A DNA stretch of 64,000 bases from an uncultured Acidobacteriota bacterium. GTDB lineage: Bacteria > Acidobacteriota > Thermoanaerobaculia > UBA5066 > Gp7-AA6. Shown here one piece after another: positions 14,391 to 15,060 of this stretch (position 1 is the stretch's first letter; every line of letters starts with the position of its first letter). Location of the stretch: NCBI GenBank assembly GCA_963765835.1, contig CAVXYF010000002.1, positions 32,401 through 96,400 of the forward strand. Reading direction: 5' to 3'. Below the pieces are notes generated by a model. The model was not told where the DNA came from. It was given only the letters and a program-made list of their open reading frames with translations, and searched no databases. A program made the position numbers and the translations under genes.

Positions 14391-15060
14391 CGAGCTACTA
14401 CAGAAGATTGTCGAGGCAGTGCTCCGCACACACACGCGCCGTGCGAAAGGGGGAGACGAGAACCCCCACGGGGGGTGTGGGGGCGCGTCCCCACCGACAG
14501 ATCCGCGCCGGCCGCGGCCGCAGGCCGCGCCTCGCGGAGCGAGCGGCCGGCAACGAGTCCCCCCTTTCGCACCACGAGCTACTACAGAAGATTGTCGAGG
14601 CAGTGCTCCGCACACACACGCGCCGTGCGAAAGGGGGAGGCGAGAACCCCCACGGGGGGTGTGGGGGCGCGCCCCCACCGACAGATCCGCGCCGGCCGCG
14701 GCCGCAGGCCGCACCTCGCGAAGGGAACGGCCGGCAACGAGTCCCCCCTTTCGCACCAGCAATTTCAGCCGACGTGGTGTCTTCAGGCTCGGTTTGAAAT
14801 CTCTCGGCTGCCGGTCGCGCAGCGACCGCCGCAGCCGACAGTCTGGGGGCACGCCCCCACCGACAGATCCGTGCCGGCCGCGGCCGCAGGCCGCACCTCG
14901 CGAAGGGAACGGCCGGCAACGAGTCCCCCCTTTCGCACCAGCAATTTCAGCCGACGTGGTGTCTTCAGGCTCGGTTTGAAATCTCTCGGCTGCCGGTCGC
15001 GCAGCGACCGCCGCAGCCGACAGTCGGCCTTGCGGCCGCCGTTCATGGCGATAAAGCTCT
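14391..15060 (+). repeat. Tandem array of ~3.7 copies of a ~180-bp repeat immediately 3' of tRNA-Leu; every unit ends with the last 21 nt of the tRNA (cgagtcccccctttcgcacca)
   Basis: Units fall at about 14391-14570, 14571-14757, 14758-14940 and a partial unit 14941-15060. There are two 5' variants (cgagctactacag... and gcaatttcagccgacg...) with a shared 3' half. Units of the first type also contain the tRNA 3' end in inverted orientation (gtgcgaaaggggga). Confidence 0.85.

What the first reader, a model, noticed from the sequence alone, without database searches (positions are those of the whole stretch)
14391..15060. Tandem ~180-bp repeat array in which every unit ends with the 3' 21 nt of the adjacent tRNA-Leu
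Immediately after the CCA end of tRNA-Leu(CAG) there are about 3.7 head-to-tail copies of a ~180-bp unit. Each copy terminates in cgagtcccccctttcgcacca, the T-arm/acceptor 3' end of the tRNA. Two 5' sequence variants share a common 3' half, and units of the first type also contain the same tRNA end in inverted orientation. This pattern is what serial site-specific integration/excision at the tRNA 3' end would leave (stacked att remnants). It could also be a tRNA-derived satellite. It is neither CRISPR nor coding.
Basis: seen in the sequence. Interest (0 to 1): 0.65.

Follow-up and report, generated by a model that had tools for sequence, protein, structure and literature searches.

The report
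Hairpin mini-element array at tRNA-Leu end
Right after a leucine tRNA gene there are tandem copies of a gene-less ~184-base unit, each a conserved hairpin-rich module bounded by an inverted and a direct copy of the tRNA's 3' end; it is most likely a tiny hitch-hiking integrative element at an integration hot spot, of a form I did not find described.

Summary
tRNA-Leu(CAG) lies at 14306-14390. Its last 21 nt recur exactly at 14554, 14738 and 14920, closing units of 184, 184 and 182 nt.

- **Unit anatomy:** a 50-nt linker that is not conserved, then a 134-nt module. The module's 5' end is an inverted copy of the tRNA end and its 3' end is the direct 21-mer. The two ends pair into a 16-bp stem that encloses hairpins.
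- **Type B unit:** it is not a separate unit type. It is an out-of-register 182-bp tandem duplication (14662-14843 copied to 14844-15025) that copied native flank.
- **Relatives:** they carry 0, 1, 2 or at least 2 units, always directly after tRNA-Leu(CAG). One is a Thermoanaerobaculia MAG.
- **Conservation:** modules are 98% identical between two genomes whose 4-fold codon sites are 79% identical. Hairpins are kept through compensatory changes. Linkers between lineages cannot be aligned.
- **Context:** the same tRNA carries other att relics and integrase islands in relatives, and a 3.6-kb island on its 5' side in this window.

Best reading (confidence about 0.4): a non-autonomous mini-element bearing an att site, amplified by repeat recombination. 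The main rival is a structured RNA co-transcribed with the tRNA. I found no match in Rfam, phage, plasmid or viral collections.

The parts
14306..14390 (+). tRNA-Leu(CAG). Its last 21 nt (14370-14390) are the first copy of the repeated 21-mer.
   Evidence: ARAGORN; Rfam tRNA, 56.7 bits; exact 21-mer match.
14391..14440 (+). Linker of unit A1 (50 nt, not conserved between lineages).
   Evidence: It cannot be aligned to the linkers of L002, L003, L004 or L022. It is homologous to the flank after the L002 array (22/24 positions, reached by 0 of 1000 shuffles).
14441..14574 (+). Module of unit A1 (134 nt). The inverted tRNA end (14441-14471) and the direct 21-mer (14554-14574) pair into a 16-bp closing stem with one bulged A. 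Inside lie a short hairpin (14462-14476), the palindromic hairpin 14477-14494, and the branched GC hairpin 14507-14551.
   Evidence: RNAfold -87.4 kcal/mol, z = -5.0; covariance model 141.6 bits; pair counts.
14575..14758 (+). Unit A2: linker 14575-14624 (identical to the A1 linker) plus module 14625-14758. The module has 6 substitutions relative to A1. Four lie in the branched GC hairpin, and two of those break pairs of its inner hairpin.
   Evidence: covariance model 134.3 bits.
14662..14843 (+). First copy of an out-of-register 182-bp tandem duplication: the 3' part of module A2, its 21-mer, and 85 nt identical to the native flank at 14941-15025.
   Evidence: TRF period 182, 2.0 copies, 98%; exact boundaries and 2 differences.
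14844..15025 (+). Second copy of the 182-bp duplication: partial module 14844-14919, 21-mer 14920-14940, and native downstream flank 14941-15025.
   Evidence: The flank is homologous to native sequence beside the beta-helix gene in L002 (31/37, reached by 0 of 1000 shuffles). The partial module scores 53.7 bits.
10680..10722 (+). Displaced 5' fragment of tRNA-Leu. It is the left 43-bp direct repeat of an island inserted on the 5' side of the tRNA.
   Evidence: 100% identical to 14303-14345. Its upstream sequence resembles the tRNA upstream region of L001 and L002 (my reading).
10723..14302 (+). Island of about 3.6 kb with lower GC. It carries a Phage_integrase-family ORF at 11322-12158 (+). 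It is context (the same tRNA is an integration hot spot), not part of the array.
   Evidence: Pfam PF00589, E = 3.9e-11; GC 0.58 against about 0.67 for 12-14 kb. It is absent from L002, where the tRNA lies 175 nt from the DHOR-like gene.
15070..16218 (-). Convergent parallel beta-helix (NosD-like) gene. It was used as the synteny anchor.
   Evidence: Pfam; homologues at 77-92% identity.

Best explanation
The array is made of a gene-less mini-element of about 184 bp. Each element is a free-to-vary linker (50 nt here) followed by a 134-nt module. The module's ends are an inverted and a direct copy of the tRNA-Leu(CAG) 3' end, and together they close a multi-hairpin fold.

**Inferred origin and amplification.**
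- The element entered by recombination inside the 21-bp block that runs from the T-loop to CCA. Integrase-bearing islands use the same block at this tRNA in relatives. The insertion therefore regenerates the tRNA and leaves a second 21-mer.
- Its copy number then changes by recombination between the repeated 21-mers or modules, whether site-specific in trans or simply homologous or slipped.
- In this window one further step, which is shown rather than inferred, was an out-of-register 182-bp tandem duplication that copied native flank and produced the 'type B' unit.
- The module is kept intact by selection on its folded form. I infer that this is because the fold is the element's recombination (attP-like) substrate, serviced by a recombinase encoded elsewhere.

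**Shown:** the anatomy, the strict site specificity, the copy-number polymorphism, the conservation above neutral, the hairpin covariation, and the duplication.

**Inferred:** the mode of entry, the trans-acting recombinase, and what the fold is for.
For: 1. **Att-like boundary.** The repeat starts at T-loop position 56 and ends at CCA. L031 has a roughly 4-kb island with a split integrase gene 31 nt from the tRNA 3' end. That island has an attR relic, GAGTCCCTC-TTTCGG, next to the beta-helix gene. L027 has the same kind of relic.
2. **Hot spot.** L029 and L030 carry a decayed tRNA 3' half from a different identity block. The window carries a 5'-side island with 43-bp repeats.
3. **Strict site specificity.** All five occupied loci (window, L002, L003, L004, L022) have the module directly after tRNA-Leu(CAG) or a 21-mer. 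The genome and metagenome scan patterns did not require a complete tRNA gene. The covariance model finds no copy elsewhere in 334 kb of held sequence.
4. **Presence/absence among close relatives.** Copy numbers are 0 (L001, L026), 1 (L004, L022), 2 (L002), at least 2 (L003), and 2 plus a partial module here.
5. **Rapid turnover after CCA.** The sequence just after CCA differs completely even between L001 and L002, which are 90% identical at 4-fold sites.
6. **Selection on the module.** A1 and the L002 module match at 131 of 134 positions, against 79% identity at 4-fold sites. In the consensus structure, 96.8% of cells are paired against about 50% when partners are slid. Five pairs show changes on both sides against 0-1 in the slid controls, and 0 of 500 shuffles reach the observed values.
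7. **No genes or recombinase nearby.** The neighbours of the L004 and L022 units are housekeeping genes.
8. **Distal units are more decayed.** In A2 and B1 the inner hairpin is broken. L022 and L002 end in truncated, diverged units.
Against: - No integrase is linked to the units, and no excised circle or free element was found. The module is absent from IMG/VR, INPHARED phages and PLSDB plasmids.
- Hairpins that covary are not what lambda-type attP arms, which are duplex protein-binding sites, usually show. They fit a folded single strand (RNA or ssDNA) better.
- The data also fit plain vertical inheritance. L002 keeps a truncated A-type linker at the far end of its array, about 88% identical to the window's. 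The common ancestor could therefore already have had a mixed array, later changed only by duplication and deletion.
- Identical linkers within an array need only homologous recombination or slippage, and the B duplication shows that such events happen here.
- There are only four independent module lineages, so the covariation statistics are weak.
Confidence: 0.4

Rival explanations
1. Structured non-coding RNA genes. The modules are co-transcribed with tRNA-Leu, like extra genes in a tRNA operon, and released as RNAs of about 134 nt. Their paired ends copy the tRNA's acceptor and T-stem helix (GCGAAAG-GGGGG / CCCCC-CUUUCGC-ACCA). The linkers are spacers free to drift, and the array arose by tandem gene duplication.
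For: - Conservation starts at the first base of the inverted arm and stops exactly at CCA, while the linkers are unconstrained.
- The module is conserved well above neutral.
- The hairpins covary.
- The module always has the tRNA's orientation and lies directly downstream of it.
- No terminator-like site separates the tRNA from the array.
- The fold is very stable, with z from -4.3 to -7.8.
- Module similarity groups the same way as the tRNA variants: window/L002/L003 against L004/L022 (my reading).
Against: - There is no Rfam match other than the tRNA itself, and ARAGORN sees no tRNA or tmRNA in the units.
- The closing stem also pairs the discriminator base and the first C of CCA (GU...AC). 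That looks like a DNA-level inverted repeat and would hinder tRNA-like end processing (inference from general knowledge of RNase P substrates).
- Both strands fold equally well, and G.U counts give no strand signal.
- The module is missing from about half of the close relatives and from all but one GTDB species representative at exact-pattern level.
- No promoter was detected, although the scan covers only sigma-70-like sites.
Confidence: 0.27
2. Passive relics. The units are dead att scars left by larger elements that integrated serially and were then deleted, with no function of their own.
For: - The tRNA is a demonstrated integration hot spot with several kinds of relic.
- Stacked partial-tRNA or partial-tmRNA repeats are known from tandem islands (PMC3146451; bioRxiv 10.1101/2020.12.28.424599).
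Against: - Module identity of 98% against 79% at neutral sites, and compensatory changes in hairpins across four lineages, are not expected of scars.
- Independent deletions would not leave the same 134-nt piece in five genomes with unrelated linkers.
- The true relics at this locus (L027, L029, L031) are visibly decayed, unlike the 21-mers of the units.
- Unit B arose by duplication, not integration.
Confidence: 0.12
3. Purely local satellite. A single chance inverted-plus-direct duplication of the tRNA end was amplified by slippage or unequal crossing-over. Nothing is mobile, and the hairpins are kept only because they act as a terminator or insulator between the tRNA and the convergent gene.
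For: - The out-of-register 182-bp duplication proves that non-site-specific tandem duplication operates here.
- In L003 the last unit ends 17 nt from the stop codon of the convergent gene, and the native terminator hairpin seen in L026 is gone.
- Both strands form the hairpins.
Against: - It does not explain near-identical modules joined to unrelated linkers.
- It does not explain why replacement always starts exactly at CCA.
- The hairpins have no U-tract, and the terminator scan finds nothing.
Confidence: 0.15
4. Assembly artefact: mis-joined or collapsed repeats.
For: Metagenome assemblers handle tandem repeats poorly, and the L003 contig ends inside its array.
Against: The same unit architecture occurs in five independent assemblies from different projects, with lineage-specific sequence differences. 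A1 and A2 differ at 6 positions, so they are not a trivial duplication of reads.
Confidence: 0.04

Closest known systems
Tandem ssrA genomic islands of Dehalococcoides (PMC3146451, read)
   Same: [quoted passage not shown] Extra sequence conservation lies immediately upstream of each repeat. Copy number varies between strains.
   Different: Those units are islands of several kb with an integration module (the serine recombinase DsiB) and cargo, and none is duplicated within a strain. Here the units are 184 bp, carry no genes, are duplicated, and bear an inverted copy of the target end that closes a hairpin fold.
Tycheposon islands with stacked partial tRNAs (bioRxiv 10.1101/2020.12.28.424599)
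   Same: The tRNA is an integration hot spot. Incoming elements push older ones outward. Partial-tRNA relics accumulate, and tandem junctions and excision create population heterogeneity.
   Different: Tycheposons encode their own tyrosine recombinase and cargo. Their relics decay, whereas the module here is conserved and structured.
Cis-mobilisable elements (CIMEs) and accretion at att sites (own knowledge; mentioned in PMC3146451)
   Same: The DNA is bounded by functional att repeats, has no integrase of its own, and is thought to be moved by a related element's integrase.
   Different: Known CIMEs are kb-sized remnants of ICEs. A conserved, hairpin-structured unit of 184 bp is far smaller and has its own inverted-repeat architecture.
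Integron attC sites and the CTX-phage attP(+) folded hairpin (own knowledge; not tested experimentally here)
   Same: The integrated unit has the same order of parts: core, short 'cargo', inverted arm, variable structured centre, then direct arm and core. Structure is conserved more than sequence in the centre. The stem has a bulged base. The units form tandem arrays next to a fixed primary site.
   Different: There is no GTTRRRY/RYYYAAC core, no IntI next to the array, and the target is a tRNA end rather than attI or dif. Cargo is 29-52 nt, and the linkers are identical within an array.
Functional tRNA 3' trailers such as 3'ETS-leuZ of E. coli (own knowledge)
   Same: The RNA is encoded directly downstream of a tRNA-Leu and could be released during tRNA processing.
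   Different: That trailer is short, single-copy, and acts by pairing with small RNAs. Nothing here indicates such targets, and the units repeat the tRNA end.

Membership tests
att repeats of tRNA-integrating elements (attL/attR) | A direct repeat identical to the 3' part of the tRNA gene, from a loop (T-loop or anticodon loop) to or past CCA. | tested here: met
   The exact 21-mer, from tRNA position 56 to CCA, occurs 4 times against 0 expected.
att repeats of tRNA-integrating elements (attL/attR) | An integrase gene inside the bounded element, usually next to the tRNA. | tested here: not met
   The units are 182-184 bp with no ORF of their own. The only integrase ORF in the neighbourhood belongs to a separate island on the 5' side. 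L031 does show the classic arrangement.
att repeats of tRNA-integrating elements (attL/attR) | Relatives have an unoccupied site in which the tRNA joins the same flank. | tested here: inconclusive
   Empty sites exist (L026, L001). 'CCA|ATAGCCAC' follows the tRNA in L027 and the array in L002. However, the flanks just after CCA are otherwise not alignable between relatives.
Cis-mobilisable element (CIME) | Excision and integration by an integrase supplied in trans, with a circular intermediate. | not testable with these tools
   This needs reads or experiments.
MITE | Terminal inverted repeats. | tested here: met
   A 16-bp terminal stem with one bulged A.
MITE | Target-site duplication and many dispersed copies. 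| tested here: not met
   No short duplication flanks the module (my reading). No other copy exists in the window or in 334 kb of loci. Every copy is at tRNA-Leu(CAG).
Integron cassette array / attC | Conserved R''/R' core sites (RYYYAAC / GTTRRRY), with an intI gene and attI next to the array. | tested here: not met
   The module ends are GTGCGAAAG... and ...CTTTCGCAC. No integrase adjoins the arrays in L002, L004 or L022.
Integron cassette array / attC | An imperfect inverted repeat with a structure-conserved, sequence-variable centre. | tested here: met
tRNA / tmRNA / known tRNA-like RNAs (Rfam) | A cloverleaf or family covariance-model match. | tested here: not met
   ARAGORN finds only the real tRNA. 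At E <= 1, Rfam gives only the tRNA and chance microRNA or sRNA hits far below their gathering scores.
CRISPR array | Short repeats (about 23-50 nt) separated by unique spacers. | tested here: not met
   The conserved part is 134 nt, and the 'spacers' are identical within an array.
Simple tandem duplication / satellite | Head-to-tail copies whose novel joint lies at an arbitrary position. | tested here: met
   This holds for the 182-bp duplication 14662-14843 / 14844-15025 only. The joint GACAGTC|TGGGGGC is not at the 21-mer. For A1/A2 the register is ambiguous.

The most novel reading that the evidence does not exclude
The module is a folded single-strand device that mimics its own target. 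Its two arms pair to rebuild, as a stem, the duplex acceptor/T-stem end of the tRNA-Leu gene (16 bp with a bulged base).

Under one version, a 184-nt single-stranded circle integrates at the tRNA by a single strand exchange, as integron attC sites and CTX-phage attP(+) do. That would make it the smallest such element and the first aimed at a tRNA gene.

Under an equally unexcluded version, the same fold acts as an RNA, a minihelix-like mimic of the tRNA-Leu acceptor end released from the tRNA transcript.
Probability: 0.2. Interest if true: 0.8.

Novelty: new variant of a known kind. Interest (0 to 1): 0.52.

Why it matters
Integration at tRNA genes is usually studied through large islands that carry their own integrase. 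If a 184-bp gene-less unit persists and multiplies at a tRNA end, and is held intact by selection on a fold built from the target's own sequence, there are two possibilities. It may define a minimal hitch-hiking partner of such integrases, which would be useful for working out what an attP really needs. Or it may point to a single-strand recombination route or a tRNA-linked structured RNA in Acidobacteriota, a phylum with almost no experimentally studied mobile elements or small RNAs. Practically, it is also a reminder that tRNA-proximal tandem repeats break metagenome assemblies, as in L003.

Tried and rejected
- **Known RNA families.** Rfam at E <= 1 gave only the tRNA. ARAGORN found no tRNA or tmRNA in the units.
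- **CRISPR or coding.** The 'spacers' are identical within an array, unit lengths (184, 182, 183, 165, 159 nt) are mostly not multiples of three, and the only ORFs across the array are spurious high-GC frames.
- **MITE.** There is no target-site duplication and there are no dispersed copies.
- **Module interior derived from the tRNA body.** Local alignment to either strand is no better than shuffles.
- **Choosing the functional strand.** Neither folding energy nor G.U counts give a signal. My first impression that G.U pairs favour the + strand did not survive.
- **Source element in phages, plasmids or viral contigs.** The module is absent. The bare 21-mer occurs in 17 IMG/VR contigs. These are tRNA-Leu(TAG) genes of other organisms or ordinary attP/attR sites with longer identity blocks and no module.
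- **Promoter and terminator consensus scan.** Nothing was found.
- **Linkage to a recombinase.** The neighbours of the L004 and L022 units are MscS, RNase R and YjbR genes. The window's integrase ORF belongs to a separate 5'-side island that L002 lacks.
- **Exact look-up of the window's beta-helix protein.** It is not on record, so the source assembly was not identified.

Full report
**1. Observation**

The region was read directly. ARAGORN and Rfam place one tRNA-Leu(CAG) at 14306-14390 on the + strand. Its last 21 nt, CGAGTCCCCCCTTTCGCACCA, recur exactly at 14554, 14738 and 14920. None is expected in shuffles.

TRF and the repeat finder report two overlapping tandem systems. One has period 184 (14370-14737, 97% identity). 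The other has period 182 (14662-15025, 2.0 copies, 98% identity).

The units are A1 14391-14574, A2 14575-14758 and B1 14759-14940. The next 85 nt (14941-15025) are identical to the start of B1. Type A units carry a 31-nt inverted copy of tRNA positions 14359-14388.

**2. Anatomy of the unit**

Each A unit is a 50-nt linker followed by a 134-nt module (14441-14574 and 14625-14758).

- In the predicted fold, the inverted tRNA copy at the module's 5' end pairs with the unit's own 21-mer at its 3' end.
- This gives a 16-bp stem with one bulged A, leaving only the last CA unpaired.
- The stem encloses a short C5/G5 hairpin, an 18-nt palindromic hairpin (14477-14494) and a branched GC-rich hairpin (14507-14551).
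- The fold has dG = -87 kcal/mol and z = -5.
- The module interior is not derived from the rest of the tRNA.
- The complementary strand folds just as well, and G.U counts do not favour either strand.

**3. The type B unit is a duplication, not an integration**

The first 85 nt of B1 are 100% identical to the sequence after the last 21-mer. That sequence is native chromosomal DNA, because it is homologous to the stretch next to the beta-helix gene in relative L002 (31/37, reached by 0 of 1000 shuffles).

The 182 nt at 14662-14843 are repeated at 14844-15025 with 2 differences. The novel joint (GACAGTC|TGGGGGC) lies inside the module, not at the 21-mer. At least this step was therefore an ordinary out-of-register tandem duplication.

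A1 and A2 differ at 6 positions. Four of them lie in the branched GC hairpin, whose inner hairpin is intact in A1 but loses 2 of its 5 pairs in A2 and B1.

**4. Relatives**

Homologues of the convergent beta-helix gene gave syntenic loci, in which the tRNA is on the minus strand.

| Locus | Beta-helix aa identity to window | What follows tRNA-Leu(CAG) |
|---|---|---|
| L001 | 92% | No unit |
| L026 | 86% | No unit; clean empty site 90 nt from the gene |
| L002 | 92% | Two identical 184-nt units: a different 50-nt linker and an almost identical module |
| L003 | 86% | At least two 180-183-nt units with a diverged module; the contig ends inside the array |

Two pattern scans that did not require a complete tRNA gene found only two more loci.

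- L004 is a Thermoanaerobaculia MAG (DATBIJ010000108). It has the tRNA plus one 165-nt unit.
- L022 has the tRNA plus one 159-nt unit, followed by a diverged, truncated second unit.

In every case the module lies directly after tRNA-Leu(CAG) or a 21-mer, in the same orientation. A covariance model built from seven modules finds no further copy in 334 kb of held sequence. The neighbours of the L004 and L022 units are housekeeping genes. The module has no match in Rfam, IMG/VR, INPHARED phages or PLSDB plasmids.

**5. Selection**

At 4-fold degenerate sites of the beta-helix gene, the window is 79% identical to L002 and 52% identical to L003. L001 and L002 are 90% identical.

The module is 131/134 identical between the window (A1) and L002, far above neutral. 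The linkers of the window, L002, L003, L004 and L022 are not alignable.

Across the four independent lineages the hairpins are kept by compensatory changes.

- In the palindromic hairpin one pair is U-A, C-G or A-U.
- In the outer GC stem, C-G becomes U-A.
- In one inner hairpin, C-G becomes U-A.
- In the other inner hairpin, two pairs change on both sides in L004.

On the model-fitted alignment, 96.8% of cells are paired, against about 50% when partners are slid. Five pairs carry changes on both sides, against 0-1 in the slid controls. None of 500 shuffles reaches the observed values.

Three caveats apply. There are only four lineages, the structure was derived from these same sequences, and the alignment was fitted to the model.

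**6. History**

The flank after the L002 array begins with a truncated copy of the window's A linker (22/24). The common ancestor therefore probably already had an A-type unit. L002 later gained or expanded C-type units on the tRNA-proximal side.

Distal units tend to be the decayed ones (A2 and B1 here, the truncated units in L002 and L022). That fits addition at the tRNA itself.

The sequence immediately after CCA is unrelated in L001, L002, L026, L027, L029 and the window. This holds even between L001 and L002. Replacement at exactly this boundary is therefore frequent.

**7. Context: an integration hot spot**

- **This window.** A perfect 43-bp repeat of the tRNA 5' part (10680-10722 and 14303-14345) brackets a 3.6-kb lower-GC island with a Phage_integrase ORF. 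L002 lacks the island.
- **L029 and L030.** A segment of about 1 kb with a small sCache-domain gene is bounded by the tRNA and a decayed tRNA 3' half that starts at the anticodon loop.
- **L031.** A roughly 4-kb island has a split integrase gene 31 nt from the tRNA end. It also has an attR relic from the same T-loop-to-CCA block beside arm-type repeats.
- **L027.** It keeps a similar relic.
- **Viral contigs.** They show the same 21-mer inside ordinary attP/attR sites of other hosts.

Published parallels are the 20-bp mid-T-loop repeats of tandem ssrA islands in Dehalococcoides (PMC3146451) and the stacked partial tRNAs of tycheposon islands (bioRxiv 10.1101/2020.12.28.424599).

**8. Interpretation**

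Three findings together favour a non-autonomous mini-element bearing an att site:

- the att-like boundary of the repeat;
- the hot-spot context;
- strict site specificity, with presence/absence between close relatives.

Such an element would be serviced in trans and amplified by recombination between its repeats, with one additional plain duplication here.

Conservation and hairpin covariation show that the module is not a dead scar. They do not say whether the fold matters as a recombination substrate or as RNA.

- **Against mobility:** no recombinase is linked, no free form was found, and a vertical history with duplication and loss fits the data.
- **Against a tRNA-like RNA:** the stem also pairs the discriminator base and the first C of CCA, there is no family match, and the distribution is sporadic.

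My weights are mini-element 0.40, structured RNA 0.27, local satellite with exapted hairpins 0.15, passive relics 0.12, and artefact 0.04.

**9. Verdict**

This is a real, unusual, gene-less structured repeat at a tRNA integration hot spot. I rate it a new variant of a known kind (att-flanked elements at tRNA genes). An open possibility remains that it works through a folded single strand or as an RNA. Interest is moderate.

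Noticed in passing
window 10680-14345: An island of about 3.6 kb with lower GC lies on the 5' side of tRNA-Leu. It is bracketed by a perfect 43-bp repeat of the tRNA 5' part (up to the anticodon loop). The displaced 5' fragment keeps the native upstream region, and the intact tRNA now sits behind island DNA. This is the mirror image of the usual 3'-side integration. The same sequence just upstream of the intact tRNA is present in L026 and L031.
   Followed up: partly
window 10864-12158: The island's recombinase looks degenerate. 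A 112-aa ORF (10864-11202, no Pfam hit) and the 278-aa Phage_integrase ORF (11322-12158) are separated by a stop codon and a hairpin. The C-terminal motif reads LLRHKKIETTRLH where, from my knowledge of the family, the catalytic Tyr is expected. This was not verified by alignment.
   Followed up: no
L029 about 2215-2250 and L030 (minus strand), next to the beta-helix stop: A decayed tRNA-Leu 3' half, AGGAACGTGTGGGTAAAACCGTTTTTGCACCA, has the whole T-arm hairpin precisely deleted. It marks the far end of an old insertion of about 1 kb carrying a small sCache-domain gene, which L001 and L002 also carry.
   Followed up: partly
L031 5097-6114 and about 1960-2100: The tRNA-Leu(CAG) has a compensated T-stem variant (GAGGG/CCCTC). 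A split integrase gene lies 31 nt from its 3' end. At the other end of the island there are arm-type repeats (GTGATTCC about 5 times, GAGTTTTCGG 3 times) beside an attR relic. The relic in L027 carries the same CCCTC variant although its own tRNA has CCCCC.
   Followed up: partly
window 26000-32000, 34000-38000 and 50000-52000: AT skew is strongly negative (-0.27 to -0.29) over 26-32 kb, positive (0.14-0.18) over 34-38 kb, and -0.145 over 50-52 kb. Long overlapping ORFs occur on both strands in the 26-32 kb stretch. The cause was not examined.
   Followed up: no
window 38000-44000: A second lower-GC stretch (0.59-0.64) encodes TPR-repeat proteins and a peptidase S13 family protein. No mobile-element gene was seen among the three ORFs scanned.
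   Followed up: partly
window 14306-14574: In the thermodynamic fold of the tRNA plus the first unit, the tRNA's 3' half pairs with the inverted arm of the unit (about 27 of 31 bp). The tRNA's 5' acceptor strand pairs with the unit's 21-mer. A read-through transcript could therefore in principle misfold the tRNA. Whether this matters in vivo is unknown.
   Followed up: no
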